In this document: in pieces, positions 28,290-50,435 of the stretch
Position numbering within the stretch: the stretch's first letter is position 1
Layout of the letters: every line of letters starts with the position of its first letter
Virus record (IMG/VR): IMGVR_UViG_3300028048_000064
Coordinates: 85,925 to 149,924 of that record
Source of the DNA: a virus
Lineage: Duplodnaviria; Caudoviricetes
Reading direction: 5' to 3' (one strand)
Length of the DNA stretch: 64,000 nt
Notes under the pieces: model-generated
The model's database searches: none
Told to the model about the DNA's origin: nothing
The model's input: the letters and a program-made list of their open reading frames with translations, nothing else
Translations under genes and position numbers: made by a program

Positions 28290-28330
28290 ATAAGAAAATA
28301 ATAGGTTTTTATAATTTTTAACGAAAAATA

Positions 28331-28550: not shown

Positions 28551-30215
28551 ATGGCAAAGTTTAATTCAAAGAAAGAGGCTACAAAGCCAACCGTAATTAA
28601 TGAGATGGGCGAGAAGGCTTTTGAACTTACCGCAAAGGAAAATCTCGTACAGAGTGTGTTAACCTCATTCCTTCAGGGACAGTACTATGAGAGTGAGTCT
28701 GAGGAAGTAAAGAAAATTCTTGATTGTGTAGATAAGGTTGACCCATTGTTCGTGGCAAAACTTGCATTGTATGCACGTAATGAGGGTAATATGAGGTCAT
28801 CAAGCCATTTGCTTGGTGCTGCATTGGCAAAGTATATTGCCGGTCAGAATTATGCCGCACGTTTCTATAACAAACTCATTGTCCGTCCGGATGATATGTC
28901 TGAGGTGCTTTCATGCTATGGTTCGTTGAACGGCATGAATATTACTGATAAGTCACTTCGTAGGATTCCAAACTCTATTAAGAAGGGATTCAAGGCTGCA
29001 CTTGAGCGTCTTGATGCTTATCAGATTGACAAATATAAGATGAATAGCCGTCAGGTGAAACTCATCGACCTTGTTAATCTGTTGCACCCAACGCCAACAC
29101 AGAAGAATAAGGAAGCTTATAAGCGTCTTATTAACGGTGAGTCTCTTGCTGACCTTTATGAGAGTAAGGTACTGGAGAAGGAAATGTCAAAGGGTGGCCA
29201 GACAGCCAAGACTGAGGAAGAGAAGACTGCTGCAAAGGAGGAAGCAATCTCTACCGTTCTTGACAATGTTAAGGGTATGCCTATTTTCAATCTGCTTCGT
29301 AACCTGCGTAACATTATCCTCTATGCGCCAAACCGTATAGACGATGCTATTGCACAGTTGACCACAAGGGAAAAGATTGTCAATTCAAGATTGCTTCCAT
29401 TCCGTTTCGCAACTGCATACACAGAAATTGAGAACATGAGTTATGAGGCAAAGAAGCCATCATCTTCAATCGCTTTGGAAAGCGAAATCAGTAAGATGAA
29501 ACTCACTCAGAATGAGTTTGCCGCTATTAAAGCAAAGGTTCTTAATGCTCTTGAAGATGCACTTGAGTATGCTTGTGAGAATATTCCGGAGTTTGATAAC
29601 GGCACATACATCTTGGTAGACTCGTCAGGTTCTATGCGAGGGGACATGGGTGGTTCTTCCCGTGTATCTGCATTTTCAAAGACTACCACTTCAATTATTG
29701 GTTATTTGTTTGCTGCAATGGTCGGATGGAAGCAGAAGGATATCTATATCGGCTTGTTCGGTGATAGGCTTATTCCAGTGGAAGTTGACCGTTCTAAGAG
29801 GATGCTCGATTTCTGTAACTACATGAACAGTAAGGGTGGCTCATGTGGTGGTGGTACAGAGGCTGGTATTTATGACTTCCTTCGCCAGTGCATTAAGGAG
29901 AAGAAGAAGGTGGATAACGTAATCGTCTTCTCTGACTGTCAGATTGGTTCCGGTGCAGAGACTGCATGGTATGGCACAGATAGTAGTGACCGTAGTGGAC
30001 GCTTCCAGGACTTGTTCAAGGAGTTCAAGAAGATTAACCCAATGTGTAACTTCATTGTGTGCAATCTTCGTTCGGCTAAGGGTAACTCAGTATTCCACAA
30101 GTCACAGAGAATACTTAACATCGCTGGTTGGAGTGAGAAGATTTTCGATGTGATTAAGTCCAACACCGTTGGTATGGATGCAATCATCAAGAAGATTGAA
30201 GCCATCGAGATATAA
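28551..30215 (+). CDS. rsr: Ro60/TROVE-domain RNA-binding protein (Rsr)
   Basis: TROVE motifs DPLFVAKLALYAR, RPDD, FNLLRNLRNI, SRLLPFRF; C-terminal vWA LVDSSGSM..GGT..FSDCQ..AGWSE. Confidence 0.9.
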   Translation: MAKFNSKKEATKPTVINEMGEKAFELTAKENLVQSVLTSFLQGQYYESESEEVKKILDCVDKVDPLFVAKLALYARNEGNMRSSSHLLGAALAKYIAGQNYAARFYNKLIVRPDDMSEVLSCYGSLNGMNITDKSLRRIPNSIKKGFKAALERLDAYQIDKYKMNSRQVKLIDLVNLLHPTPTQKNKEAYKRLINGESLADLYESKVLEKEMSKGGQTAKTEEEKTAAKEEAISTVLDNVKGMPIFNLLRNLRNIILYAPNRIDDAIAQLTTREKIVNSRLLPFRFATAYTEIENMSYEAKKPSSSIALESEISKMKLTQNEFAAIKAKVLNALEDALEYACENIPEFDNGTYILVDSSGSMRGDMGGSSRVSAFSKTTTSIIGYLFAAMVGWKQKDIYIGLFGDRLIPVEVDRSKRMLDFCNYMNSKGGSCGGGTEAGIYDFLRQCIKEKKKVDNVIVFSDCQIGSGAETAWYGTDSSDRSGRFQDLFKEFKKINPMCNFIVCNLRSAKGNSVFHKSQRILNIAGWSEKIFDVIKSNTVGMDAIIKKIEAIEI

Positions 30216-36453: not shown

Positions 36454-36544
36454 TTTATAGTAGATATTAAGAGCCACTATATTTCAAATAATAGTGGCAT
36501 TTTTTTTATTAACAATTTTGTTTAATAAAAAAAAAAATAATATT

Positions 36545-38803: not shown

Positions 38804-38873
38804 GCGTCTTTGGTGTAATGGTTGCATATCTGATTTCCAATCAGAAGGACAGGTTCAATTCCTGAAGACTGCT
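38804..38873 (+). tRNA. tRNA-Gly(TCC), acceptor stem bulged (possibly degenerate)
   Basis: TCTGA-TTTCCAA-TCAGA anticodon arm; CAGG-TTCAATT-CCTG T arm. Confidence 0.65.
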
Positions 38874-38878
38874 CTCTT

Positions 38879-39332
38879 TTGCATATCATAGGTAGTTTCT
38901 TCAAAATTCGGTGGAAATCCTTCCCTTCAAACCTGCAATTTATAATGTGTGGCTTAAGTATGGCGGAGGAACCACAACACTAATCAATAATGTGCAAGGA
39001 TAATACCGAGTTAAATTGAGATAATGACCTCCTTAATTGGACTGGGAAAGTTAAAAGCTTTTTATCTTATAGTACCTAAGTTGAAATTTATATAGTAGAA
39101 AAGCGGAGCACGTGTGAATCGGAGGTAACCAGTTCTAGTAGAAGCACTTCATCGTGTGGGCTGGGCATAAATGAGGAGATACTACTATGTAACTTGCAAG
39201 AATTTCAATAAGGTAATTTCAGACTACAACAAACAAAGAATAGAGGAATAGCAATTTGCTATAAACTCCACTGTCAACTGACAGGAAGTAGGCTTTATTG
39301 TACAAACCACTTTGTTTGGCTATGATATGCAA
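38879..39332 (+). ncRNA. Group-I-intron-derived structured RNA, no exons
   Basis: 13-bp closing helix TTGCATATCATAG/CTATGATATGCAA; P4-P6-like core shared with 44681-45030. Confidence 0.5.
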
Positions 39333-39348
39333 TCTTTAGAAAATATAT

Positions 39349-39638
39349 AGAACAAGTACAGACCACTGAGTAGGAACTGGGGAAGTGATAGGTAAATGCT
39401 AGCTTCATATTTATCATGTAGACGGACTCAAAGCAGTACCGACAGCCCAGTGAAAGGTGTTGGTTAGGATAAGGAGTTATCCAATACGTGAAGAGCAGCG
39501 TATTTCGTGAGAAGCCATAAGCAGGAACACAACAAATGCCGTAAAACAGCGCAAGTGCCTAATAGCGGGTTTCCTGATTAAATCTGAATAGATGATAAAA
39601 GGTTGCAAAAGTCTGTACCTCGTAAATTTACTTGTTCT
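39349..39638 (+). ncRNA. Unknown ~290-nt structured RNA
   Basis: Closing helices AGAACAAGTA/TACTTGTTCT and GTACAGAC/GTCTGTAC; GC-enriched, no credible ORF. Confidence 0.45.
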
Positions 39639-39645
39639 TTTGAAT

Positions 39646-39717
39646 GCTTGGATAGCTCAGAGGCAGAGCATCGCACTGTTAATGCGAGGGTCGGGATATC
39701 GTAATTCTCTCCAAGCG
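39646..39717 (+). tRNA. tRNA-Asn(GTT), atypical T loop
   Basis: TCGCA-CTGTTAA-TGCGA; acceptor GCTTGGA/TCCAAGC. Confidence 0.8.
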
Positions 39718-39861
39718 CAAAATATTTTTGTATTAAAAACTCCGAGGGTTGGAAGATGGTTGGACTTACGGCAAATGCTAGGAACCTGATGAACCGTAAG
39801 TCAAAGGTGTGTTGTAGGAGTTGCAGGTGAAACGGACAACAGTGTAGGAGTTTTTTTATAT

Positions 39862-40019
39862 GTGGCAGTAACTCAGTTGGTAGAGTGCCGGACTGAATAC
39901 AGAGTAAACTGAAAAATCAAACTTCGTATTGGTTGAGTGGCTGAAACTTTTAAACATTGGTTCGAATCCAATATACGAAGCAAATCCGGTTGTCGGTGGT
40001 TCAAATCCACCCTGCCGCA
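39862..40019 (+). tRNA. tRNA-Phe(GAA) interrupted after position 36 by an 85-nt insert (39898-39982) containing a tRNA-like module
   Basis: Joining 39862-39897 to 39983-40019 gives a canonical cloverleaf with CCGGA-CTGAAAA-TCCGG. Confidence 0.8.
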
Positions 40020-40097
40020 CATTTATATGAAAAAAAAACGTTCGAAACTTGTTTATTCAACTATTTATTAGTATATTTGCAATATATTAGTAAAAAA

Positions 40098-41144
40098 ATG
40101 AAAATGATTGATATTACAAGCGACGAAAACAAGAGAGAAATTTACAAATTATTTGATTCTTTTAATAAAAAAGAAGACATATACAATTATTTTGGAATAA
40201 GTCATAATAGCTATGGTGTTAAGTATGTTAATGCTATTGCATTAGAGATTAATTTTGATTTAAATATTTATCATAAAAGACGTTTTCCGGAAAGATTTTG
40301 TTTAAATTGTGGAAAAAAATTAAAAAAAGGACAAAAGAAATTTTGTGGCCATTCTTGTTCAGCCTCATATAATAATGCTACAAGTGCAAAAGTTGTTAAT
40401 AAGAAGAAAAAACAAGTAAAAAGTCGGGTAAACAAACAAAATAAATGTAAAGTATGTGGAAAAATAGATTGTTTACATACAGGCGTTTGTAATCATCATT
40501 CTTTAAATTGGTTTGATAATCTTATATATTTCGGTTTTGATAAAACGAAGTTAGGAACTGATGGCGTTTTTAATGAATATGAAAATGTAAAAAAGAAAAT
40601 TTCAGATGAATATAAAAATGGTTTGTCTGTATCTGCAATCAAAGAAAAATATAATTATCAGGGTTCAACTGAACGTCTTGTTCATGTTATGAAAAACATG
40701 GGAATTAATTTACGTTGTTTATCTGATGCTTTGCGTAAAGCCATTAGCGAAAAACGTTGTAAATTGCCAGAAGTTATGAAACAATTTAATTATGGGTGGC
40801 ATAATACATGGGATGGATACAAAGTTTTTTATCGCAGTTCATATGAATATGATTTATGCAAATATTTTGATGACAGAAAAATACACTATGAAATGGAAAA
40901 TTTAGTAATTGAGTATTTTGACACCATTTTAAATAAAAAGCGTTATGCGTTACCAGATTTTTATATTGAAAAAGAGAATAAAATTATAGAAGTTAAATCA
41001 AGAGTGACATTTGTTAAACAGAATATGATAGATAAAATGAAACGTTATATAGAGTTAGGGTATGATGTTTTATTAAATTATGAGCATAAAATGTATACCT
41101 TTGATGAAATGCTTAAAATTGAAGAATATAAGTATAAGATTTAA
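40098..41144 (+). CDS. Free-standing homing-type endonuclease, Zn fingers + C-terminal PD-(D/E)XK domain
   Basis: CLNCG..FCGHSC; YRSSYE...LPDFYI...IIEVKS; upstream ORF-track extension overlaps tRNA-Phe, so ATG 40098 is preferred. Confidence 0.75.
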   Translation: MKMIDITSDENKREIYKLFDSFNKKEDIYNYFGISHNSYGVKYVNAIALEINFDLNIYHKRRFPERFCLNCGKKLKKGQKKFCGHSCSASYNNATSAKVVNKKKKQVKSRVNKQNKCKVCGKIDCLHTGVCNHHSLNWFDNLIYFGFDKTKLGTDGVFNEYENVKKKISDEYKNGLSVSAIKEKYNYQGSTERLVHVMKNMGINLRCLSDALRKAISEKRCKLPEVMKQFNYGWHNTWDGYKVFYRSSYEYDLCKYFDDRKIHYEMENLVIEYFDTILNKKRYALPDFYIEKENKIIEVKSRVTFVKQNMIDKMKRYIELGYDVLLNYEHKMYTFDEMLKIEEYKYKI

Positions 41145-41151
41145 ATAATTT

Positions 41152-41350
41152 GGGAGGTTATTCCGTAAGTGGTAGCGGGGCTGACTGTATACAGAGTAAA
41201 CTGAAAATCAAATTTTAGTTTGGCTGAGTGGTTGAAAGCTAAGGCACTAAGTGCTGAGTGAATTTACACTCACATTCGCCGGTTCGAATCCGACAACTAA
41301 AACAAATCAGCTGCTTAACGGCTCGGGTGGTTCGACTCCATCACCTCCCA
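41152..41350 (+). tRNA. tRNA-Tyr(GTA) interrupted after the anticodon by a 115-nt insert (41190-41304) containing a tRNA-like module
   Basis: Joined exons give GCTGA-CTGTAAA-TCAGC, long V arm, GGTGG-TTCGACT-CCATC, acceptor GGGAGGT/ACCTCCC. Confidence 0.8.
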
Positions 41351-41378
41351 CATAATTTTTCATAACTAATGTTTCTGA

Positions 41379-41675
41379 TTGAATATGTTACAGAAAATTA
41401 AAGAAAAATATAAACGATACAAAAGGTTAAAAGGACTTAGAACATATCGTAAGTTAAGAAACACTTTTGATACTGAATATGGAAAATTCCTTGCTTATAT
41501 GTATTATGTCGGTGGTGAAGGAAAATTAGAAGACTTATATAAGTTATTTAATCCTGAAATAATTAGACGTGCTTGGTTTGCCGGATATTTTAACGTCTAT
41601 GATAAAAATTTAGGGTGGAAAGACCATCTGTACAATACAGATGTATATAAAAAATATGATAATGGAAAAAAATAA
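41379..41675 (+). CDS. Hypothetical protein
   Basis: ~97-aa ORF within the tRNA island. Confidence 0.5.
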   Translation: MNMLQKIKEKYKRYKRLKGLRTYRKLRNTFDTEYGKFLAYMYYVGGEGKLEDLYKLFNPEIIRRAWFAGYFNVYDKNLGWKDHLYNTDVYKKYDNGKK

Positions 41676-41908
41676 AATTCAGACCCGATGTTTTGCTGTG
41701 TCAGAGTAAATAAACAGTAGGTGGGATATGGTATGTCACCTTGATAGAAGAAACAGAGAGAAACTGTGCTAATATCAGAATAAACCATTAATACTAGTTA
41801 AGGGTAATGAGGTTTTGTAGGTAAGGAAACCGCCGCACTAAGTTTGGAAACAATAAATAAGAACTAAGTGAAATGGTAAGTTGGTTTATGGATTTCCAAC
41901 GTAAATTT

Positions 41909-41981
41909 AGCCCATTCATCTAGCGGCCTAGGATACATGCCTCTCACGCATGTCACAGCAGTTCAAATCTGCTATGGGTTA
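41909..41981 (+). tRNA. tRNA-Glu(CTC)
   Basis: CATGC-CTCTCAC-GCATG; full cloverleaf. Confidence 0.85.
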
Positions 41982-41992
41982 CAAATTATTTT

Positions 41993-42069
41993 GGGGGCGT
42001 AGTTCAGTTGGCTAGAACATCTGCTTTGCAAGCAGGGGGTCGTGGGTTCAAGTCCCACCGTCTCCACCA
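41993..42069 (+). tRNA. tRNA-Ala(TGC)
   Basis: TCTGC-TTTGCAA-GCAGG; encoded CCA. Confidence 0.92.
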
Positions 42070-42092
42070 ACTTGATTAACAAATGGTTATAC

Positions 42093-42166
42093 AGATGCTT
42101 AGTTCAGTTGATTAGAATATCGGTCTCCAAAATCGAGGGTCGGAGGTTTGAGTCCTTCAGCATCTG
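42093..42166 (+). tRNA. tRNA-Trp(CCA)
   Basis: TCGGT-CTCCAAA-ATCGA. Confidence 0.85.
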
Positions 42167-42172
42167 CAAAAA

Positions 42173-42245
42173 CGGGATATGAGGTTTAATGGTAGCCTGC
42201 GTGCTTTGGGAGCATGTCGAGTCAGTTCGAGTCTGGCTATCCCGA
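42173..42245 (+). tRNA. tRNA-Pro(TGG)
   Basis: CGTGC-TTTGGGA-GCATG. Confidence 0.85.
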
Positions 42246-42252
42246 CAAATAT

Positions 42253-42325
42253 GGTCGGTTCGACAAGTTGGTTAAGTCGTCGCCCTTTCAAGGCGGAGTC
42301 ACGGGTTCGAGTCCCGTACCGACTA
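42253..42325 (+). tRNA. tRNA-Glu(TTC)
   Basis: TCGCC-CTTTCAA-GGCGG. Confidence 0.9.
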
Positions 42326-42336
42326 CTTTCATTTTC

Positions 42337-42408
42337 GCCTCCTTGGGTGAGTGGCCGAGCCACCGGTCTGCAAAACCGGGTACCCCTGTTCGAGTCAGGG
42401 AGGAGGCT
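42337..42408 (+). tRNA. tRNA-Cys(GCA)
   Basis: CCGGT-CTGCAAA-ACCGG; U discriminator. Confidence 0.9.
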
Positions 42409-42423
42409 CATTAAATTATATTT

Positions 42424-42495
42424 GCCGGTGAAGCACAATGGTTGTGCAACTGATTTGTAATCAGTAGGCTGTGGGTTCGACCCCCATCACCGGCT
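42424..42495 (+). tRNA. tRNA-Thr(TGT)
   Basis: ACTGA-TTTGTAA-TCAGT. Confidence 0.88.
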
Positions 42496-42503
42496 CAAAG
42501 AAT

Positions 42504-42588
42504 GGCTTCATGGGGGAATTGGTAGACCCGGCAGACTTAAAATCTTCTGGCCAGTATGGCCGTCCGGGTTCGAGTCCCGGTGAAGCTA
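42504..42588 (+). tRNA. tRNA-Leu(TAA)
   Basis: AGA-CTTAAAA-TCT; long V arm. Confidence 0.85.
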
Positions 42589-42620
42589 CTGAATAATGGG
42601 TATTTAGCTCAGTGATAACT

Positions 42621-42694
42621 GTTGGCATAATTCAGTAGGTTAGAATGTCACGCTGATACCGTGAATGTGGGTGGTTCGAGTCCATCTGCCAACA
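42621..42694 (+). tRNA. tRNA-Ile(GAT)
   Basis: TCACG-CTGATAC-CGTGA. Confidence 0.85.
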
Positions 42695-42702
42695 CTTTTT
42701 AT

Positions 42703-42777
42703 AGTGCGTTAGTTCAGTAGGTTTAGAATGCCACACTGTCACTGTGGAGGTCGCCGGTTCGAATCCGGTACGCACTG
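42703..42777 (+). tRNA. tRNA-Asp(GTC)
   Basis: CCACA-CTGTCAC-TGTGG. Confidence 0.9.
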
Positions 42778-42796
42778 CTTATAATATTTAAATTTT

Positions 42797-43546
42797 ATGG
42801 AATATAATGTAGATGATATTAAAAAGTCAAAACCAAATCAAAGTTTTGAATTTATTTGTAAAAATTGTGGCTGTTCATTTTATCGTACAAAACGTGACAT
42901 TTCTAAAAATAAATATGAACTTCCAATGTTTTGTAGTTGTAAATGCAGAGGTGAATGGAAAAGTAAAAATCGTACCGTAAATGTTAAATGCAAATATTGT
43001 GGAAAAGAATTTAAAATTTTACTCAGTGATTATAATAGAAGCAAAACAAAACATTTTTTCTGTTGCCAATCTCATTCGGCATCGTATACTAACAGATATA
43101 GAAATAACGATAAAAAAATGAAAGATGTAGTATGGAAAGGTGGTAAACATAAAAAAGGATATAATGCTTGCCCTCGCTGTGGTAAACTAAAATCTTATAC
43201 CGCTGAATTATGCAGAAAATGTTGCATTGAGTTGAAACATGAAAAAATAAAATTAAAGACCCTTGGCTATTATATAGACGGACATAAATATTTGACTATT
43301 AAATGTAGTGAAATAAGAAAGGACGCTAGAAGAACAATTGAAAACAGTAATAAATTAAAACATTGCTGTTTTTGTGGAAACAATCATGAATTTGATGAGA
43401 TTCTTGACGTACATCATATAAAAGGCATATTAAAATTTCCTAGTTCTGCCACTATTGGTGAAATTAATAATATAGATAATTTAATGTGGGTTTGCCCTAG
43501 CCATCATAAGATGTTAGAGAAAGGTTTAATTACACTGACTCCGTAG
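42797..43546 (+). CDS. HNH homing endonuclease with multiple Zn fingers
   Basis: CKNCG, CKYCG, DVHHIKG...NNIDNLMWVCPSHH; stop codon lies inside tRNA-Lys. Confidence 0.85.
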   Translation: MEYNVDDIKKSKPNQSFEFICKNCGCSFYRTKRDISKNKYELPMFCSCKCRGEWKSKNRTVNVKCKYCGKEFKILLSDYNRSKTKHFFCCQSHSASYTNRYRNNDKKMKDVVWKGGKHKKGYNACPRCGKLKSYTAELCRKCCIELKHEKIKLKTLGYYIDGHKYLTIKCSEIRKDARRTIENSNKLKHCCFCGNNHEFDEILDVHHIKGILKFPSSATIGEINNIDNLMWVCPSHHKMLEKGLITLTP

Positions 43547-43609
43547 CTCAGTTGGTAGAGCACAACACTTTTAATGTTGGGGTCCCGGGTCCGAGTCCCG
43601 GCGGGGTCA
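43537..43609 (+). tRNA. tRNA-Lys(TTT)
   Basis: CAACA-CTTTTAA-TGTTG. Confidence 0.88.
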
Positions 43610-43621
43610 CTGAATTAATAT

Positions 43622-43694
43622 GGGACAGTTGGCCGAGTGGTTAGGTGCATGTTTGTGGCACATGTTTACGTTGGTTCGAACCCAACACTGCCCC
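43622..43694 (+). tRNA. tRNA-His(GTG)
   Basis: CATGT-TTGTGGC-ACATG; G-1:C73. Confidence 0.82.
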
Positions 43695-43701
43695 CATAAT
43701 T

Positions 43702-43774
43702 GCACCATTGGTGTTAGTGATTAGCATATCAGACTTCCAATCTGAAGGGGACAGTTTGAATCTGTTATGGTGCT
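43702..43774 (+). tRNA. tRNA-Gly(TCC)
   Basis: TCAGA-CTTCCAA-TCTGA. Confidence 0.82.
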
Positions 43775-43781
43775 CTAATTT

Positions 43782-43853
43782 GCAGTATTCGTATAGTGGT
43801 TATTACACCTGCTTGCCATGCAGGAGACGAAGTTTCGATTACTTTATACTGCT
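43782..43853 (+). tRNA. tRNA-Gly(GCC)
   Basis: CCTGC-TTGCCAT-GCAGG. Confidence 0.82.
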
Positions 43854-43974
43854 CTAATAATAGAAATTGACGATAGAGGTCTCAATGTTAAGTCCGGTAA
43901 CGGATAAAAGAAGTCTTGTTGGTTAAGGAAACCAGATTCCCTTGAAAGTACGTCCGTCAATTTTTTATATGAAC

Positions 43975-44158
43975 CTTGCAAGAAAACCCCATCCTTCAGG
44001 GTAGGGATGAATTGCAAAAAAATTCTTCGTAGGGGCATCTACGAATTGGCAAGCGGGAGTGAGACCATTGAGACTACGTGTCAAAGGGCATCCCACGCAA
44101 GCGTTGTTACACGAAGTGGCCAAGAATCCCTCAATCTTTAGGTGGGGGAGTATGTCAA
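43975..44158 (+). mobile_element. Non-autonomous IS200/IS605-type miniature element (left-end hairpin + omegaRNA-like right end), copy 1
   Basis: LE CCCCATCC-TTCA-GGGTAGGG; RE GAATCCC..TTTAGG..GGGGAGTATGTCAA; paralogous to 49837-50019. Confidence 0.75.
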
Positions 44159-44645
44159 GAACTAACAGAAGGAAACACCCGTATGTACTAGCGGGAGAAG
44201 TTACCGTAGGCAACCAATCTGAGGTTGAGATACATATCCGATTTGTATTGTAATTGGAGGTGGTTATTCATTAGTATGGATGTGTAGGATTAGAGTTGTA
44301 CGGGATAGTGGAATGTATGTTTTTAAGTATAAGTTGAAATTAATTCAGCAATGTTGATGCAATGAAGATTATCATTGAAATCTGAGTTTATGCAGCGGTG
44401 GCCATGTAATTGCATCAGTAGTGAGTCAAACGACACTATGGTCAAATTGTTGAATTTACTTGCAAGGATTTCGACTTTTTTTGATATGGTTTTACTCTGA
44501 CTTCGAGTACTGGCAATTCGGCAGAAAGCATTTATATGTTGTTAGATGCTATAGAGTGATAATGGTGGGAGTCCATGATGTCGTTTTGTGTTATCTACTG
44601 CTTGGAGAACTCTAATTAAAACTATTTTTGCTTTATTATATAAAT

Positions 44646-45038
44646 GAAAACATAAGCCTAATTGGTAAGGCAGTGGTCTTGAATTTAATTCGAGTGCTAT
44701 GGCGAGAAATCCCATAGTAGAATCTCCCTAAAACGGCGGAAGTCCTCAGAAGTGGGCATAAGTTGTGTGAGATATGTACATTCACACCACCTAAACAATA
44801 ATGGTGGAGGATAATACCGTGCTAAATTGAGAGACTATACCTTCAAATAACTTTGATGTTCATAAGGTTAAGTTTGGGTAAACAAGTTAGCCTCATAAAA
44901 GTGTCGAGAGTATATAGGAGATACCTAAGTTGAAATTTATAATGAAACCTAGAAGTGCGAACATCCAAGAAAGGTCAGTAGCTCGGTTGATTTATATCTC
45001 ATGAGAATTTTAATATGGTAAAAATAAACTGTCTTCCA
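44646..45038 (+). pseudogene. tRNA (Ser-like body) pseudogene with truncated group I intron after U34
   Basis: 5' exon GAAAACATAAGCCTAATTGGTAAGGCAGTGGTCTT; P1 CTTGAA/TTCGAG with U-G; P3 ATCTCC/GGAGAT; P4; R-like GTCGAGAGTATA; only acceptor 3' strand TGTCTTC remains. Confidence 0.6.
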
Positions 45039-45046
45039 TTTATAAT

Positions 45047-45130
45047 GGCGGGTTGCCGGAACGGTAACGGGCCTGACTTGAAATCAGAGGCATCCTTCGG
45101 GGTGAGTGGGTTCGACTCCTACACCCGCCG
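45047..45130 (+). tRNA. tRNA-Ser(TGA)
   Basis: CTGA-CTTGAAA-TCAG; long V arm with TTCG loop. Confidence 0.85.
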
Positions 45131-45220
45131 CACATACTTTATTTTTTCTAAAAAAAAAACGTTCGAAATTTTGTTTTTCCGCTATTTATTAGTATATTTA
45201 CAATATACATAAATAACAAA

Positions 45221-46117
45221 ATGAGAAAACGTAATATTATAGACATTAGTACAGAGGAAAAGAAAAAAGAAGTTTACGATATTTTAAATTCGTTATCAAG
45301 TAAAAATCAAATTCATGAGTATTTTGGTATATCAGATAATAAATGTGGTTCTGATTATGTTAAACAAATTGCTTCAAAAATTGGATTTGATTTAAACATT
45401 TATAAAGAAAGAAAAAAGAAACCTATTAAATATTGTAAGCAATGTGGTAATGAAATCACAAGTAAAACAGCAAATGAATTTTGTTGTAGTTCTTGTGCCG
45501 CAACGTACAATAATGAACACCGTTCAAAAGATGTTTATGAAAATATTGGTAACAAATTAAGAAAACATCCTAAAAAGGTATGTAAAGAAAAATATTGCGA
45601 AATATGTGGTAAAAAATTAGAAGGCCATCAGCATAAATATTGCTCTGAGAGTTGTAGGAATCGAAACAAATATTTAACGCAAGGACAAGAATTTATTTGT
45701 CAAGAATGTGGTAAAATATTTAAAAGTAGAAATCCAAATAGGAAGTTTTGTTCAAATGAATGTTGTGCTAAACATAGAGGTAAAGAAACTATTGACAAGT
45801 GGATTAAAGGCGAATATTTTTTAGACCCAAATTCAAAATTACCTAAATATATAAGATTGTTTCTTTATGAAAGAGCACATTATAAATGTGAAGAATGTGG
45901 CTTTGAAGGTTATAATAAGAGAACAAATAATACTATTTTACAAATTCATCATATAGACGGAAATTGTGGTAATAACTGTAGAGAAAATCTGAAAGTTTTA
46001 TGCCCTAATTGCCACGCTATGACTGAAAATTATATGGCACTCAATAAAGGAAAAAGTGCAAGGTCTAAAAGATATAAAGGAGAGAGCAACCAACAAGGAG
46101 TTGGGTCTGACTGCTAA
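45221..46117 (+). CDS. HNH homing endonuclease with Zn-finger repeats
   Basis: CxxCG..FCS..C repeats; LQIHHIDGN..NN...NLKVLCPNCH; 3' end overlaps tRNA-Ser(GCT). Confidence 0.88.
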   Translation: MRKRNIIDISTEEKKKEVYDILNSLSSKNQIHEYFGISDNKCGSDYVKQIASKIGFDLNIYKERKKKPIKYCKQCGNEITSKTANEFCCSSCAATYNNEHRSKDVYENIGNKLRKHPKKVCKEKYCEICGKKLEGHQHKYCSESCRNRNKYLTQGQEFICQECGKIFKSRNPNRKFCSNECCAKHRGKETIDKWIKGEYFLDPNSKLPKYIRLFLYERAHYKCEECGFEGYNKRTNNTILQIHHIDGNCGNNCRENLKVLCPNCHAMTENYMALNKGKSARSKRYKGESNQQGVGSDC

Positions 46118-46164
46118 TCAGAACGTGCTATTTGTGGCATAGGTATCGTAAACCTGCCTCTCCG
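46079..46164 (+). tRNA. tRNA-Ser(GCT), atypical D/T loops
   Basis: TCTGA-CTGCTAA-TCAGA; acceptor GGAGAG/CTCTCC, G discriminator. Confidence 0.7.
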
Positions 46165-46197
46165 CAGAGTTTAACATTAAAGCAGAAAGGAAAAATT

Positions 46198-46866
46198 ATG
46201 GAAAACAGTAAATACCCAAGAACGTTTCACGTCCCGTTCTCAGAAGGGTTACAGAATGATGACAGACGTGTTGATGACGATTGGTTTTCCTATTTGAAAG
46301 GAAAGGAACTGATTCTTAGCGAAAAATTAGACGGTGAAAACAGTTCTATATCTCGTTATGGTGTATTTGCTCGTTCTCATGCAGCACCTACAAGGAATCC
46401 TTGGTCAATAAACCTATGGGGAAATGACGGCCTTTATTGGAGAATTAAGGATTTGATTGGTGAAGATGAAATGATTTACGGTGAGAACTTATATGGTGTT
46501 CATTCGATTGAATATAATAGGTTGAAAGAATATTTCCATATGTTTGCCGTAAGGGATGAAGAGAAATGGTATTCTTGGGATGATGTTTCAGAAATGGCAC
46601 AGATTCTTGATTTGCCGACTGTTCCTGTATTGGAAAGACGTTCATTTGACACAGAAGATGAATTAAAGGAACACGTATTGTATTGGATGACGCAAGGCAG
46701 TAGGTATGGTGATACTATTGAGGGTGTTGTTATCCGTAATGTTGATAGTTATCCGATTGATGAGTTTTGTCATAATGTCGTGAAGTATGTACGTAAGAAT
46801 CATGTGCAAACTGACCAATTTTGGGCAAAAAATTGGAGAAAAGCGAAAATAACAGAATATTATTAA
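46198..46866 (+). CDS. ATP-dependent RNA ligase (Rnl2-like nucleotidyltransferase)
   Basis: KYPRTFH, motif I SEKLDGEN, III IYGEN, IV EGVVIR, V KYVR. Confidence 0.85.
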   Translation: MENSKYPRTFHVPFSEGLQNDDRRVDDDWFSYLKGKELILSEKLDGENSSISRYGVFARSHAAPTRNPWSINLWGNDGLYWRIKDLIGEDEMIYGENLYGVHSIEYNRLKEYFHMFAVRDEEKWYSWDDVSEMAQILDLPTVPVLERRSFDTEDELKEHVLYWMTQGSRYGDTIEGVVIRNVDSYPIDEFCHNVVKYVRKNHVQTDQFWAKNWRKAKITEYY

Positions 46867-46976
46867 TAACTTTTAACAAAAAATATTTGTAGATTCTTTG
46901 CACTGTCAAACGATGACAAAGTGTTCTTTTTATATATTTATATAATAAGAAAGGAGAAATAGAAAACACATCAAAG

Positions 46977-47444
46977 ATGATTATTGGTTCATATAATAGC
47001 ATGAGTTATCTTCAACCAGCAAATAAATGGTTGAAATATATTAACAAGTGGTTTATAAGGTATCAAGAAAAGACAATTGAGCAACAATATGCCGAAGGTA
47101 TAAGACTATTTGACATAAGGCTATTTGTTAACAAATATGGCAAGTTATGCTTTAAATGTCGTTTTGTTGAATATATTATATTCAGTTTATATGGTGTGTT
47201 TAATTTCCTTAATAAACAAGGTGATTGCTACGTAAGATTAACACTTGAAGAAACACTTGTTGATGCCGGTAGTAATAATATAAAGAATGTTGAGGAAAAA
47301 TTCATATGGGCTTGCAAATCATTACCAGAGATTTATCCAAATATTAAATTCTTTGGTGGAAAAAGAGAATTTGATGGAAAATTGCTGTATGAATTTAAAA
47401 ATGAATTGAAAGATTATGAATATAGACTTTTAACGTTTATATAG
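46977..47444 (+). CDS. PI-PLC X-box-like protein, probably catalytically altered
   Basis: GSYNSMSY (usual His replaced by Tyr), QEKTIEQQYAEGIRLFDIR. Confidence 0.6.
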   Translation: MIIGSYNSMSYLQPANKWLKYINKWFIRYQEKTIEQQYAEGIRLFDIRLFVNKYGKLCFKCRFVEYIIFSLYGVFNFLNKQGDCYVRLTLEETLVDAGSNNIKNVEEKFIWACKSLPEIYPNIKFFGGKREFDGKLLYEFKNELKDYEYRLLTFI

Positions 47445-47777
47445 AAAGACAAAAATGGAGAGTAAGGTGGCGCACTCCGCCGGAATAAAACGTCACGCTT
47501 ATAAGTCTGAAATTTTAAATACATATTAGGGTACAGAAATGACCGGGCGTAGATTTCAGTCTAAGTTCGTAGGAGGACTTCGAAATTGTATTTATTCTTC
47601 GAAGAATTTCAGATTTTTAGAAAATAGTTAGGAGATGCACCTAATGACTCAAGCATGCTGATATTTTGTTATGGTGACTTGCAAGATTTCTTAACTATTT
47701 TTGTTTTTGGAAAGTGAAAATAACAGAATTTTATTAGTTTTAAGTTATGGAGGAATTAAAAGACTAAGTAATGGTAT

Positions 47778-47851
47778 TGGGGTGTCGTATAGTCCGGTTA
47801 GTACACATGACTTTGACTCATGTAGCACCAGTTCAAATCTGGTCGCCCCAA
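47778..47851 (+). tRNA. tRNA-Gln(TTG)
   Basis: CATGA-CTTTGAC-TCATG. Confidence 0.88.
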
Positions 47852-47857
47852 CTATTT

Positions 47858-47931
47858 TAGAGATTGGTGTAAAATTGGTAACACGTGACACTCTGGATGT
47901 TAAGTTATCAGTCCGAGTCTGGTATCTCCAA
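47858..47931 (+). tRNA. tRNA-Gln(CTG)
   Basis: TGACA-CTCTGGA-TGTTA; one acceptor mismatch. Confidence 0.72.
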
Positions 47932-47938
47932 CTAATTT

Positions 47939-48022
47939 GGCTTCATGGTGGAATTGGTAGACACGAATGTCTCAAAAGCATTTGTCCGAGAGGATGTAAG
48001 GGTTCAAGTCCCTTTGAAGCCA
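47939..48022 (+). tRNA. tRNA-Leu(CAA)
   Basis: AATGT-CTCAAAA-GCATT; long V arm. Confidence 0.88.
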
Positions 48023-48024
48023 CT

Positions 48025-48149
48025 AAGCAAATAGTCATTTAATGGCAAGAACGGGGCGCATGGAGGAATATTGATGGAAACCATTGATACACAGTTAATG
48101 TGATGTTGCCAATCGGTGATGTTGGGTTCGATTCCTGACCTATTTGTTT
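48025..48149 (+). ncRNA. tRNA-like RNA with anticodon arm replaced by ~65 nt
   Basis: Acceptor-like AAGCAAATAG/CTATTTGTTT, D loop TTTAATGGCAA, T arm GTTGGG-TTCGATT-CCTGAC. Confidence 0.55.
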
Positions 48150-48209
48150 AATTTTAGTATTGAAAAACTGTTAAACTATATTTATATTAATATTTAAAGT
48201 TTAATTGTT

Positions 48210-48542
48210 ATGAGTTCAATATTAGATGAATATAAGAGATACACGGATGACAGTTTACTAACAGAGGAAGAAAAAGCCAAAGTTAGGGAGTTAGTAAATG
48301 ACTATGAGGCCTTAAATATGGATTTATTTATCCGTAAGATTGGTGGAATGGAACGTATTGAGGAAATGAAACGAATTAATGACGTTGCCGATGGCATGTA
48401 TGTTGTTGGCGGCAAGGTTGTGCATAAATCAAGGCCAAATAGTAATGCTTCTATTTCAAATAGACAGGAAGACCTGGATGAGTGGAAAAAAGGCTTCATG
48501 GAAGGTTTTGAGGAAGCATACAAGAGACTGAATATGAGATAA
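48210..48542 (+). CDS. Hypothetical protein
   Basis: 110-aa ORF preceded by TATTTAT. Confidence 0.55.
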   Translation: MSSILDEYKRYTDDSLLTEEEKAKVRELVNDYEALNMDLFIRKIGGMERIEEMKRINDVADGMYVVGGKVVHKSRPNSNASISNRQEDLDEWKKGFMEGFEEAYKRLNMR

Positions 48543-48558
48543 ATAATTTTTTATATAT

Positions 48559-48957
48559 GGGGATAACAGGCATTTGACAGCAAGTATGAAATGGTCTGTA
48601 AGCATGCAGTGTGAAGACTATTACACTTAAATCAATTTGGTCGAACAATTAATTGGCGAAACAACTTACGCTCTCGCTGCCTAATCGAAGTACAGTAGGT
48701 TACTGGCTTAATTCCCTTACAAGGTGAGGGAACGAGACATCACTTAATGAGTTATTTTCTGAGACTTGTTAGTATAGTGGTGCAGGAAAATCAGAAATAG
48801 TTGGTCTATGCCTTGATGGATTGATGAAAATTAAAAGGATAAGAATGCAATTTGGTAGTTCAAGTCGTGTTGCATTATGAAAATCAAAATTGAACTAAGC
48901 ATGTAGAAAATAGATGGTTTCCTTGTTTGGACGAGGTTTCGATTACCTCTATCTCCA
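48559..48957 (+). ncRNA. ssrA: tmRNA
   Basis: 5' GGGGATAACAGGCATTTGAC, 3' GGACGAGGTTTCGATTACCTCTATCTCCA, tag ORF 48655-48684 GETTYALAA*. Confidence 0.93.
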
Positions 48958-48968
48958 CAAATTAGGAT

Positions 48969-49054
48969 GCCGTTGTACCCGAACTGGTATAGGGGACAGT
49001 CTAAGGAACTGTTGCAACGGAAGTTGCGTGAGGGTTCGACTCCCTCCAACGGCA
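48969..49054 (+). tRNA. tRNA-Leu(AAG)
   Basis: ACAGT-CTAAGGA-ACTGT; long V arm; A discriminator. Confidence 0.82.
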
Positions 49055-49064
49055 CAAACATGAT

Positions 49065-49138
49065 GCCCCCATAGCTCAGTTGAATAGAGCACGATACTTC
49101 TAATATCGGGGTCACAGGTTTGAATCCTGTTGGGGGTA
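49065..49138 (+). tRNA. tRNA-Arg(TCT)
   Basis: CGATA-CTTCTAA-TATCG. Confidence 0.9.
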
Positions 49139-49177
49139 CAAAATTTTCTTGAAATTTACAATTTTTAACAAAAAATA

Positions 49178-49209
49178 TTTGGTAGTTTCAAAAATAATTA
49201 GTATCTTTG
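49178..49209 (+). promoter_or_regulatory. Bacteroidota-type promoter heading the Y-RNA-like array
   Basis: TTTG-N20-TATCTTTG. Confidence 0.75.
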
Positions 49210-49269
49210 CAACCGAATTAATGAAGAAAGCGTTCTTTAATATATTTATAATGTAGAAAACAAAAAAAT

Positions 49270-49371: not shown

Positions 49372-49516
49372 GTTGGTAGTGAAGTTAAGGGTTACTTCGA
49401 TTAATTATTGGTTCGAATCCAATAGATTCCGTTTTGGGAATTTTGGCGAAATGGTATACGCGAAACACTTGAAATGTTTTTTAGACAGAAACTCACCCTT
49501 GCTGTGATTCTCCAAT
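49372..49516 (+). ncRNA. Y-RNA-like unit 2, YrlA-type circularly permuted tRNA module
   Basis: Conserved stem encloses T arm (TATTGG-TTCGAAT-CCAATA), loop-closed acceptor (GATTCC/GGAATT), D arm and anticodon-like arm, in that order. Confidence 0.7.
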
Positions 49517-49525
49517 TTTTTATAC

Positions 49526-49665
49526 GGGCGTAAAGTTTAGAAAAAAGAAATTTACTGAAGGTATTTTCTTTGATTTTTCAATAGTGAACTTTACAGTTAC
49601 TTCGAATAGGTTAAAACGTTATCATGTCAAGATAAAGATTCTTGGTTCGACTCCAAGTACGCCCG
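49526..49665 (+). ncRNA. Y-RNA-like unit 3: tRNA-Asp(GTC) with the Y stem inserted (strand-swapped) in its D loop
   Basis: Acceptor GGGCGTA/TACGCCC-G, TTATC-ATGTCAA-GATAA; insert ~49541-49606 carries TAGTGA..GTTACTTCGA. Confidence 0.65.
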
Positions 49666-49670
49666 CAAAC

Positions 49671-49803
49671 AACAAGTAGTGACAGAAGAGTTACTTCGAT
49701 TTTTTAGCTAAGTAGGTTATAGCGCAATTCTGTTAAAATTGATGTCCGAGGTTCGAGTCCTCGAAGAATCTATTTTGTAATACTCTTCTAATTTTCTCTT
49801 GTT
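49671..49803 (+). ncRNA. Y-RNA-like unit 4 enclosing a complete tRNA-Asn(GTT)-like cloverleaf (49698-49771)
   Basis: AACAAG..AGAAGAGT / ACTCTTCT..CTTGTT stem; CAATT-CTGTTAA-AATTG. Confidence 0.7.
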
Positions 49804-49836
49804 TTTCTTTTGAAAGTAGTATATATTTATATACGT

Positions 49837-50019
49837 CTTGCAAGAAAACTCCATCCTTCAGTGTGTGGATGAATTGCAAAAAAAAATTCTTCGTAGGGGC
49901 ATCTACGAATTGGAAAGCGGGTGGAAGACCAGTGAGGCTCCGGCCAAAGGGCATCCCACGAAAGCGTCTAGTACGAAATGTCCAAGAATCCCCTCACTTT
50001 AGGGAGGGGAGTATGTCAA
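49837..50019 (+). mobile_element. Non-autonomous IS200/IS605-type miniature element, copy 2
   Basis: Paralogue of 43975-44158 (shares TTCTTCGTAGGGGCATCTACGAATTGG and GTATGTCAA end). Confidence 0.75.
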
Positions 50020-50028
50020 ATAAGAAAT

Positions 50029-50165
50029 ATGCAGTAGTGACGTGACTGTTACTTCGATAACATTTAGACAAGTGGTTAAGTCGCAATTTTTTGGTAATTG
50101 AGAACGCCGGTTCAATTCCGGCAGTGTTGTAAACAATAGCAAACAGTCACAAATTTTCTCTGTAT
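50029..50165 (+). ncRNA. Y-RNA-like unit 5 enclosing a complete tRNA-Gln(TTG)-like cloverleaf (50058-50130)
   Basis: GTGACTGTT/AACAGTCAC stem; CAATT-TTTTGGT-AATTG; GCCGG-TTCAATT-CCGGC. Confidence 0.7.
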
Positions 50166-50172
50166 TATTTAG

Positions 50173-50337
50173 TGGGCGGTAGTTCAGTGGTAGAACACGA
50201 GTCTCGTCTCTGTAGTTTAATTGGCAGAACACAAATTTTTATGATTTGGACATGAGGTCGATACTCATCGGAGGCACAAAGTTTTAAGAACTTACAAAAT
50301 AATCTCGAAATCCCTGGTTCGAGTCCAGGTCGCCCAA
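50173..50337 (+). tRNA. tRNA-Met(CAT)-like gene interrupted between C34 and A35 by a 93-nt insert (50206-50298) that begins with a full tRNA-like cloverleaf
   Basis: Joined exons give CGAGT-CTC|ATAA-TCTCG; acceptor TGGGCGG/TCGCCCA; T arm CCTGG-TTCGAGT-CCAGG. Confidence 0.7.
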
Positions 50338-50435
50338 CAAAAATATGTTGTCCCAATATATCGTAGGGAGCATGCAATTGTCTATTAATATAGGCTTTTG
50401 CATATTTTATTTTATATATAAAGATTTATTATTAA

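What the first reader, a model, noticed from the sequence alone, without database searches (positions are those of the whole stretch)
49526..49665. tRNA-Asp carrying a ~66-nt protein-binding-type stem inside its D loop
Seen: intact acceptor (GGGCGTA/TACGCCC, G discriminator), anticodon arm (GTC) and T arm. The D loop holds the Y-type stem with its two strands in swapped order, so it is a circular permutation of the neighbouring units. Inference: a natural tRNA-aptamer chimera with free tRNA ends that might be chargeable; possibly an evolutionary intermediate between tRNA and YrlA. An ordinary tRNA-Asp also exists at 42703.
Basis: partly seen in the sequence, partly recalled or inferred. Interest (0 to 1): 0.7.

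Follow-up and report, generated by a model that had tools for sequence, protein, structure and literature searches.

The report
tRNA-shaped Ro60 partner RNA, phage
A large uncultured phage that makes its own Ro60 protein encodes a 140-base RNA that is a whole tRNA shape with free ends and, spliced into its D loop, a loop-closed copy of the Ro60-docking stem of Y RNAs: most likely an undescribed wiring of the known tRNA-like Y RNAs, not a working tRNA.

Summary
Window 49526-49665 has a 7-bp acceptor stem, G73, a 4-bp D stem, an anticodon arm (GTC) and a canonical T arm. Removing 65 bases (49541-49605) from the D loop makes ARAGORN call tRNA-Asp.

The insert carries every invariant element of the stem shared by the four neighbouring units, in swapped strand order and closed by a TTTT cap. 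Covariation in 16 diverse units supports that stem's two helices. Its 5' motif co-occurs with Ro60 (TROVE) genes in 32 of 50 phage contigs, and lies just upstream of TROVE genes in at least 10 genome or MAG contigs. This phage has a Ro60 gene, and it shares a promoter block with the array.

Six near-identical relatives keep the unit at 96-99% identity, against 85-89% for the flanks, with one compensatory T-stem change. U33 is A in two relatives, and the anticodons of sibling units drift, so a decoding role is unlikely.

Most likely it is a YrlA-type Y RNA in a new topology. Ro60 binding, end processing, charging and splicing are all untested. Rfam's YrlA model does not detect it. This scan noted similar D-loop grafts in other phages; I found none in the papers searched.

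The parts
49178..49211 (+). Promoter block upstream of the five-unit array (TTTG ... TAnnTTTG type). It is shared with the Ro60 gene's upstream region at 28331-28364.
   Evidence: Pattern found only twice in 64 kb. About 50 nt are alignable between the two sites and with L009. Reading it as a Bacteroidota-type promoter is from my own knowledge.
49526..49532 (+). Acceptor stem, 5' strand (GGGCGTA)
   Evidence: 7 Watson-Crick pairs with 49658-49664
49535..49540 (+). D stem 5' strand GTTT, followed by A14 G15
   Evidence: ARAGORN cloverleaf after removal of the insert; coordinates
49541..49553 (+). A-rich strand of the module. It corresponds to the RAAAAAAC segment that precedes helix 2 in other units; GAA can pair with UUC of TACTTCGA.
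   Evidence: Family alignment; constrained fold. The A-run length varies (A5 or A6) among orthologs.
49554..49562 (+). Module helix 2, 3'-type strand (ACTGAAGGT)
   Evidence: 9 pairs with 49588-49597 and one bulged A. The equivalent helix covaries in 16 units.
49563..49569 (+). Conserved internal-loop strand ATTTTCT (3'-type)
   Evidence: TT.CT is invariant or nearly so in the family alignment
49570..49581 (+). Basal helix TTGA/TCAA closed by a TTTT cap. In the neighbouring units the RNA ends lie here.
   Evidence: The cap is TTTTTT in L087. The basal helix covaries in the family.
49582..49587 (+). Conserved internal-loop strand TAGTGA (5'-type)
   Evidence: Invariant in all units
49588..49597 (+). 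Module helix 2, 5'-type strand (ACTTTACAGT)
49598..49605 (+). TACTTCGA, the end of the invariant GTTACTTCGA. It contains the CGA(A) motif that the Y-RNA literature links to Ro60 recognition.
   Evidence: motif described in PMC4201824 and PMC12135203
49606..49618 (+). Rest of the D loop (ATAGGTTA, with G18 G19 A21), D stem 3' strand AAAC, and G26
   Evidence: ATAGG becomes ATGG in four orthologs.
49619..49635 (+). Anticodon arm TTATC-ATGTCAA-GATAA, anticodon GTC
   Evidence: Positions 32 (A/C) and 33 (T/A) vary among orthologs while GTC is constant.
49641..49657 (+). T arm CTTGG-TTCGACT-CCAAG
   Evidence: Compensatory change to CTGGG/CCCAG in L009, L089 and L092.
49658..49665 (+). Acceptor 3' strand TACGCCC and discriminator G. 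It is followed by C-AAA, as in the phage's genuine tRNAs; no CCA is encoded.
28551..30215 (+). Phage Ro60 ortholog (554 aa, TROVE plus Ro60 vWA domains), the presumed protein partner

Best explanation
Unit 3 is a Ro60 partner RNA (a Y RNA of the tRNA-like YrlA kind) built in an unusual way.

Known YrlA RNAs are a circularly permuted tRNA whose anticodon stem runs into the Ro60-docking stem. Here the tRNA part keeps its native connectivity, with open acceptor ends and an intact anticodon arm. The docking stem is closed by a cap and plugged into the D loop between positions 15 and 17.

Inferred life cycle:
- It is transcribed with four sibling Y RNAs from a promoter block also found in front of the phage Ro60 gene.
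- It is released by the host's tRNA end-processing enzymes: RNase P at G1, 3' trimming after G73, then CCA completion.
- It is bound by phage Ro60 through the TAGTGA/ATTTTCT loop and the GTTACTTCGA strand.

The tRNA body then acts as a look-alike that recruits, or is a decoy for, a tRNA-recognising factor. It does not act as a decoder on the ribosome.

Shown: the anatomy, family membership of the stem, its genomic link to Ro60, and purifying selection. Inferred: binding, processing and role.
For: - Every invariant column of the stem family is present in the insert.
- The family's two helices are supported by covariation: 85.8% of cells paired, 11 of 16 pairs with compensatory changes, 0 of 500 shuffles reach the score, and slid controls are far lower.
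- The 5' motif co-occurs with TROVE genes in 32 of 50 viral contigs, and in 9 of 11 that are at least 90% complete.
- It also co-occurs with TROVE in 25 of 50 genomes or MAGs, and lies within about 1.5 kb upstream of a TROVE gene, on the same strand and contig, in at least 10.
- The units at those sites show the published T, closed-acceptor, D layout (PMC4201824).
- The phage itself has a Ro60 gene, and the promoter block occurs only before Ro60 and before the array.
- Unit 3 is 95.7-99.3% identical in relatives, against 86-89% for the next ORF and 85-88% for the leader. Changes fall only in linkers and loops, plus one compensatory T-stem pair.
- U33 is A in 2 of 7 orthologs. Anticodons of sibling tRNA-bearing units change between close relatives: GTT/GCT; TTG/TGG/AGG; GAT/TTT/TCT.
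- Loop-closed modules in free-ended tRNA-like RNAs recur in other Ro60-encoding phages: L016/L174 and L163.
- Precedent: M. smegmatis YrlA is cut by RNase P, gains CCA and stays bound to Rsr (PMC4201824).
Against: - There are no expression, end-mapping or binding data.
- For naked RNA, the thermodynamic ensemble prefers another helix (P about 0.6) to module helix 2 (about 0.09) and the D stem (about 0.03). The MFE z-score is only -1.8.
- The seven orthologs are too alike to test the module helices or D stem of unit 3 itself by covariation.
- Rfam YrlA (RF02553) does not detect any unit.
- The Ro60 gene is 19 kb away, not adjacent.
- Many of the 'genome' contigs carrying the motif next to TROVE also carry tRNA arrays, so they may be phage DNA binned into MAGs.
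Confidence: 0.6

Rival explanations
1. Split tRNA gene. The 65-nt module is an intervening sequence that is cut out of the D loop, and the halves are rejoined (the phage has an RNA ligase). The products would be a working second tRNA-Asp and a free hairpin Y RNA.
For: - Removing the insert gives a tRNA that ARAGORN accepts.
- The same phage has tRNA genes interrupted by structured inserts at 39862-40019, 41160-41345 and 50173-50340.
- An RNA ligase gene lies at 46132-46866.
Against: - An ordinary tRNA-Asp(GTC) already exists.
- U33 is A in two orthologs, A8 replaces U8, and A38 replaces C38.
- The insert is not tRNA-shaped, so RNase P or RNase Z could not excise it as proposed for the other inserts.
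- No helix joins the two boundaries apart from GAA/UUC.
- The insert keeps every element of a stem that elsewhere stays in the mature RNA.
Confidence: 0.12
2. A working tRNA-Asp that keeps its insert. It would be charged by AspRS and used in translation while carrying Ro60.
For: - G73, G10 and GUC are present, and GTC is constant in all 7 orthologs.
- The 3' context is tRNA-like, with C74.
- The insert sits in the length-variable part of the D loop (general knowledge).
Against: - U33A in 2 of 7 orthologs; C38 is absent.
- Sibling units change anticodon freely.
- A 65-nt arm plus a 60-kDa protein at the elbow should clash with the ribosome (inference).
Confidence: 0.07
3. A non-functional by-product of recombination among the tandem units.
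For: - Tandem paralogues favour rearrangements.
- This exact form was found in one narrow clade only.
Against: - It is 3-4 times better conserved than its flanks.
- There is a compensatory T-stem change, and indels occur only in linkers and the cap.
- All invariant module positions are kept.
- The same idea recurs in another lineage, L016/L174, with a covarying cap helix.
Confidence: 0.08
4. The RNA does not fold as a cloverleaf. The 5' part (positions 5-14) would pair with UGAACUUUAC of the module, giving a different, possibly switchable structure.
For: MFE of -29.0 against -28.0 for the cloverleaf. This helix has an ensemble probability of about 0.6.
Against: - A 10-bp helix arises in 50% of shuffles of this AT-rich sequence.
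- It would break the TAGTGA/ATTTTCT loop that the whole family conserves.
- tRNA folds are commonly missed by MFE prediction.
Confidence: 0.1

Closest known systems
YrlA (Y RNA-like A) of bacteria and actinophages (Chen et al. 2014, PMC4201824; Wang et al. 2018, bioRxiv 10.1101/312249; Rfam RF02553)
   Same: Both combine a Ro60-docking stem carrying a CGA(A)-type 5'-strand motif with a tRNA-like domain that has T and D features. Both are encoded in Ro60-bearing genomes, often several per locus, and both occur in phages with large tRNA sets.
   Different: YrlA is a permuted tRNA in T, closed-acceptor, D order. It has no anticodon loop and no free CCA end, and the docking stem replaces the anticodon stem. 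Unit 3 has native tRNA order, open acceptor ends and a full anticodon arm, and the docking stem (itself permuted and capped) sits in the D loop. RF02553 gives no hit.
[quoted passage not shown]
   Same: It is a Ro60-bound RNA whose tRNA-like domain has free, tRNA-type ends.
   Different: There the free ends arise by cutting the RNA into two pieces that stay paired. Unit 3 would achieve the same in one covalent piece.
Units 2, 4 and 5 of the same array, and similar units in other phages
   Same: They carry an identical docking stem, belong to the same operon and have tRNA bodies.
   Different: In unit 2 the stem joins between the anticodon arm and the T arm of a permuted tRNA. In units 4 and 5 it extends the acceptor stem of a whole tRNA. 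Only unit 3 has it in the D loop with the ends free.
L016/L174 RNAs (IMG/VR contigs found here), and D-loop grafts noted earlier in this scan (e1-5767119, e1-5767129)
   Same: A free-ended tRNA-like RNA carries a loop-closed Ro60-type module between the acceptor 5' strand and the anticodon arm. The anticodon is G-U-N (GTA) and position 33 varies.
   Different: In L016/L174 the module replaces the whole D arm (no D stem, no GG), the T loop is atypical, and L016 encodes CCA. These are different phage lineages.
tRNA-shaped ('enigmatic') introns of large phages
   Same: A structured insert lies inside a phage tRNA gene, and the same genome has three such genes.
   Different: Those inserts are tRNA look-alikes in the anticodon loop of needed tRNAs. 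Here the insert is a Ro60 stem in the D loop of a redundant, non-canonical tRNA.

Membership tests
YrlA-type Y RNA | Encoded with (usually next to) a Ro60/Rsr (TROVE) gene | tested here: met
   The Ro60 gene is at 28551-30215 of the same phage, 19 kb upstream, so not adjacent. A promoter block is shared. The stem motif co-occurs with TROVE in 32/50 viral contigs and 25/50 genomes, and is adjacent to it in at least 10.
YrlA-type Y RNA | 5'-strand motif GNCGAAN0-1G / CGAA (PMC4201824; PMC12135203) | tested here: inconclusive
   Unit 3 has UUCGAAUAGG, so CGAA is present but the first G is U. Sibling units have CGAU.
YrlA-type Y RNA | tRNA-like domain with T arm and D-loop signature nucleotides | tested here: met
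   T loop TTCGACT with G53-C61; G18 G19 A21, A14 and G10-C25 are present.
YrlA-type Y RNA | Permuted order T, closed acceptor, D; no free CCA end; no anticodon loop | tested here: not met
   Unit 3 has native tRNA order, open acceptor ends and a 7-nt anticodon loop. Unit 2 does have the permuted order.
YrlA-type Y RNA | Match to Rfam RF02553 at the gathering score (69 bits) | tested here: not met
   The best hit in the genome is 19 bits, and it falls on ordinary tRNAs, not on any unit. No hit in 11 TROVE-adjacent loci either.
YrlA-type Y RNA | Physical binding by Ro60/Rsr | not testable with these tools
   Needs EMSA or co-immunoprecipitation.
tRNA (functional tRNA-Asp) | Recognised as a tRNA by ARAGORN or Rfam RF00005 | tested here: not met
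   For the intact sequence, ARAGORN finds nothing and Rfam gives a partial 23 bits, below 29. ARAGORN calls it only after 65 nt are removed in silico.
tRNA (functional tRNA-Asp) | Invariant U33 and U8 | tested here: not met
   A33 in L087 and L089. A8 in all orthologs, although the phage's tRNA-Thr also has A8.
tRNA (functional tRNA-Asp) | AspRS identity set G73, G10, G34 U35 C36, C38 (E. coli set, from my own knowledge) | tested here: inconclusive
   All are present except C38, which is A38. The ordinary tRNA-Asp at 42703 has C38. The host's rules are unknown.
tRNA (functional tRNA-Asp) | Aminoacylation and use in translation | not testable with these tools
   Needs charging assays.
tRNA intron (group I, or bulge-helix-bulge) | Group I core, or a bulge-helix-bulge at both boundaries | tested here: not met
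   No Rfam intron family matches up to E = 10, and 65 nt is too short for group I. The constrained fold shows only GAA/UUC near the boundaries and no bulge-helix-bulge. The latter was judged by eye, not with a dedicated tool.

The most novel reading that the evidence does not exclude
Unit 3 is matured and charged like a tRNA while staying bound to Ro60, making it a tRNA permanently tagged with an RNA-surveillance protein. It would be used either to bring Ro60 to a factor that reads G-U-N anticodon loops, or as bait for such a factor, for instance an anticodon nuclease of host defence or a queuosine-inserting enzyme. Both lineages with the module at the D position have G-U-N anticodons (GTC here, GTA in L016/L174) with a variable position 33. 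Anticodons of sibling units change between near-identical phages, which would fit an arms race at the anticodon loop.
Probability: 0.12. Interest if true: 0.85.

Novelty: new variant of a known kind. Interest (0 to 1): 0.6.

Why it matters
What the tRNA-like domain of bacterial and phage Y RNAs does has been open since 2014. Known YrlA RNAs cannot present a free acceptor end or an anticodon loop.

This RNA, with its siblings, shows that phages attach one and the same Ro60-docking stem to tRNA bodies at several different points. One of these leaves every tRNA recognition surface intact. That gives a natural set of constructs for asking which tRNA face matters, and whether Ro60 particles meet tRNA enzymes, synthetases or anticodon nucleases.

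It is also a natural example of a tRNA scaffold that tolerates a large structured insert in the D loop.

Tried and rejected
- **Phage GenBank search:** blastn of the array against phage GenBank records gave no match.
- **Synteny search:** searching with the downstream 121-aa ORF brought only the two relatives already found.
- **Chance estimate:** my first estimate, that most single motif hits in viral contigs were chance, was wrong. Most have a covarying partner strand and a TROVE gene.
- **RNAalifold:** on the MAFFT alignment of 16 units it predicted only the basal helix. Helix 2 had to be supplied by hand and then counted.
- **Rfam:** the YrlA model (RF02553) and an E-value scan did not detect the units.
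- **Alternative helix:** the 10-bp helix favoured by the MFE was considered as a switch and set aside, because it is at chance level.
- **Pairing with neighbours:** none was found between unit 3 and the adjacent units.
- **Recent duplicate of the ordinary tRNA-Asp:** rejected. Identity is only 64%, barely above other tRNAs.
- **Whole-unit circular permutation of units 2 or 4:** rejected on topology. The attachment points differ.
- **Sigma-70 promoter and terminator scan:** uninformative.
- **Papers:** two Y-RNA reviews (PMC10870794, PMC6047535) are not held.

Full report
**What is there**

The window is the last 64 kb of a 150-kb IMG/VR virus record that CheckV rates 41% complete. It holds a large tRNA set and a tmRNA, an RNA ligase, and a Ro60 ortholog with TROVE and Ro60-vWA domains at 28551-30215.

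Behind tRNA-Arg (49065-49139) lie five units that share TAGTGA-N7/8-GTTACTTCGA. These five are the only copies in the held record. The finding is the third unit.

**Anatomy of unit 3 (coordinates checked)**

- Acceptor GGGCGTA/TACGCCC, with discriminator G.
- A8 A9, then D stem GTTT/AAAC.
- D-loop ends AG and ATAGGTTA.
- G26, then anticodon arm TTATC-ATGTCAA-GATAA.
- Variable region AGATT.
- T arm CTTGG-TTCGACT-CCAAG.

Between A14-G15 and the G18-G19 part of the D loop sit 65 nt (49541-49605). ARAGORN finds no tRNA in the intact 140-mer. It calls a 75-nt tRNA-Asp(gtc) when these 65 nt are removed. Rfam's tRNA model aligns only the 3' two thirds, at 23 bits.

The insert reads, in order: an A-rich strand, ACTGAAGGT, ATTTTCT, TTGA, TTTT, TCAA, TAGTGA, ACTTTACAGT, TACTTCGA. 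In the neighbouring units the order is:

- basal strand, TAGTGA, helix-2 strand, GTTACTTCGA;
- then the payload;
- then the A-rich strand, the helix-2 partner, (A)ATTTTCT and the basal partner.

So the insert is the same two-helix stem with its strands swapped, its basal end capped and its apical end opening into the D loop.

**Does it fold that way?**

With the cloverleaf enforced, ViennaRNA recovers helix 2 (9 bp, one bulged A), the capped basal hairpin and a GAA/UUC closure at -28.0 kcal/mol. The insert alone folds the same way.

The unconstrained MFE (-29.0, z = -1.8) instead pairs positions 5-14 with UGAACUUUAC. That helix dominates the naked-RNA ensemble: about 0.6, against about 0.09 for helix 2 and about 0.03 for the D stem. 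However, a 10-bp helix appears in half of the dinucleotide shuffles of this AT-rich sequence, so it is not evidence of design.

Folded together with units 2 and 4, unit 3 pairs only with itself.

The real fold still needs probing. The seven orthologs are too similar to give covariation for helix 2 or the D stem of unit 3 itself.

**The stem is a real, widespread RNA module tied to Ro60**

- *Distribution.* The 5' motif occurs in 59 IMG/VR contigs.
- *Covarying partners.* In most, the helix-2 strand has a covarying partner downstream, followed by an (A)WTTNYCT(C) strand and a covarying basal partner.
- *Pair counts.* On 16 diverse stem-only units, 85.8% of cells pair, and 11 of 16 pairs show compensatory changes. 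The covariation score is 0.458 against 0.177 in shuffles (0 of 500 reach it), and sliding the partner strand destroys the signal.
- *TROVE in phage contigs.* 32 of 50 motif-bearing viral contigs encode a TROVE protein, and 9 of 11 that are at least 90% complete do.
- *TROVE in genomes and MAGs.* A stricter motif hits 55 contigs. 25 of 50 of those genomes have TROVE, and in at least 10 the motif lies within about 1.5 kb upstream of the TROVE gene on the same strand and contig.
- *Layout at those sites.* The RNA there has the published YrlA layout: V region, T arm, closed acceptor stem-loop, D arm (PMC4201824).
- *Caveat.* Several of these contigs carry tRNA arrays and may be phage DNA inside MAG bins.
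- *Similarity to a known YrlA.* The 5' end of M. smegmatis YrlA, as given in a primer in PMC4201824 (GGUGAUGUGAG), resembles the UAGUGAUGUGAG of unit 1.
- *Rfam.* Even so, the YrlA model RF02553 detects none of these units. The family is a branch that the curated model does not cover.

**Link to Ro60 in this phage**

The Ro60 gene is 19 kb upstream. A ~50-nt block, TTTTTAAC.AAAAATATTTGGTA.TTTCA...TAGTA.CTTTGCAA, occurs only twice in the window: directly upstream of Ro60 and directly upstream of the array. The block is conserved in the relatives. Its form fits the TTTG / TAnnTTTG promoters of Bacteroidota (my own knowledge). This suggests co-expression.

**Conservation**

Unit 3 is present in six other contigs: L009, L065, L068, L087, L089 and L092.

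The differences are limited to:
- the A-run length (A5 or A6);
- the cap (TTTT or TTTTTT);
- ATAGG versus ATGG in the D loop;
- position 32 (A or C) and position 33 (T or A);
- one T-stem pair that changes on both sides (CTTGG/CCAAG to CTGGG/CCCAG).

Identity is 95.7-99.3%, against 86-89% for the neighbouring ORF and 85-88% for the leader. The unit is therefore under purifying selection, with structure-preserving change.

**Decoder or mimic?**

GTC is constant, and G73 and G10 are present. But A38 replaces C38, A8 replaces U8 (the phage's tRNA-Thr shares A8), and U33 is A in two orthologs.

In sibling units the anticodon itself changes between near-identical phages:
- unit 4: GTT or GCT;
- unit 5: TTG, TGG, AGG, or an 8-nt loop;
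- an extra unit in L087/L089: ATC or GTA.

In another phage group, units identical elsewhere carry GAT, TTT or TCT. These bodies therefore do not behave like tRNAs with a fixed coding identity. Whether this reflects relaxed or diversifying selection cannot be told here.

**Ends**

All 20 genuine tRNAs of the window have C at position 74, and several have N73-C-AAA. Only tRNA-Ala encodes CCA. Unit 3 has G73-C-AAA in all orthologs, while units 4 and 5, whose ends continue into the stem, do not.

With a 7-bp acceptor and a 5-bp T stem, unit 3 looks like a normal substrate for RNase P and 3' processing. M. smegmatis YrlA shows that a Y RNA can be cut by RNase P, receive CCA and stay on Rsr. Such cuts would also free the 3' end of unit 2 and the 5' end of unit 4.

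**Is the design unique?**

- *Exact form.* A metagenome scan for the swapped-order signature found the 42-44-nt form only in this clade.
- *Module in place of the D arm.* Looser scans found the same idea elsewhere. L016:6667-6787 and its relative in L174 are free-ended tRNA-like RNAs in which a capped module replaces the D arm. The anticodon is GTA, position 33 is T or G, the cap helix covaries (TGG/CCA against TGATT/AATCA), and CCA is encoded in L016.
- *Module at the anticodon-arm position.* L163:5495-5592 has the capped module there, which is the exact permutation of YrlA.
- *TROVE in those records.* All three records have TROVE-like ORFs, two of them weak.
- *Earlier notes.* This scan's earlier notes report further D-loop grafts in other phages. 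I did not check those loci.
- *Papers.* My literature searches found no description of any such wiring.

**Verdict**

- The interpretation as a tRNA/Ro60-stem chimera with free ends is supported.
- Chargeability is open, and decoding is unlikely.
- The 'evolutionary intermediate' idea is not supported.
- Best reading, at about 0.6: a YrlA-type Y RNA in a new topology.
- Rivals: D-loop intron (0.12), alternative fold (0.10), relic (0.08), working tRNA (0.07).

Noticed in passing
window 28296-28380 and 49143-49227: The Ro60 gene and the Y-RNA array are preceded by a near-identical ~50-nt promoter block found nowhere else in the 64 kb. This suggests that protein and RNAs are co-regulated.
   Followed up: partly
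L008, L022, L023, L027 (units at oriented positions 5922, 2872, 2210, 1469); window units 4 and 5; L087/L089 extra unit: Whole tRNAs enclosed in the Ro60-type stem differ between near-identical phages almost only in the anticodon: GAT/TTT/TCT; GTT/GCT; TTG/TGG/AGG; ATC/GTA. The anticodon looks hypervariable in an otherwise fixed RNA.
   Followed up: partly
L016:6667-6787 and L174:7363-7486 (- strand): A free-ended tRNA-like RNA in another phage lineage, with a capped Ro60-type module in place of the D arm. It has anticodon GTA and an atypical T loop TGCAATT; CCA is encoded in L016. The cap helix covaries between the two.
   Followed up: partly
L163:5495-5592: A free-ended tRNA-like RNA in a complete 299-kb phage that has a TROVE gene. 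The capped module lies between a D-like hairpin and the T arm, which is the exact circular permutation of canonical YrlA.
   Followed up: partly
window 49800-50030, compared with L087/L089: Two relatives have a sixth stem-plus-tRNA unit between units 4 and 5. The window has an unrelated ~230-nt GC-richer insert there, and L009, L065, L068 and L092 have neither.
   Followed up: no
window 39862-40019, 41160-41345, 50173-50340: Three tRNA genes are interrupted in the anticodon loop by tRNA-like inserts. At the position of the third, the relatives carry a different, uninterrupted tRNA(CAT) with a long variable region.
   Followed up: no
window 49376-49520 (unit 2); L010 and L044 units: The permuted tRNA units of these phages keep a complete anticodon arm with a 7-nt loop (GAA in unit 2), unlike published YrlA. 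The docking stem therefore joins at the variable-loop position rather than replacing the anticodon stem.
   Followed up: partly
window tRNA genes (38804-49139): All 20 ordinary tRNA genes encode C74 but not CCA (only tRNA-Ala does), and several share an N73-C-AAA 3' context.
   Followed up: partly
window 28365-28550 and 30216-30400: Roughly 180-nt non-coding stretches flank the Ro60 ORF, one between its promoter block and the start codon. They look GC-richer and possibly structured. Neither contains the stem motif.
   Followed up: no
window 36494-37747: An ORF with a reverse-transcriptase domain (RVT_1) lies just upstream of the tRNA region.
   Followed up: no
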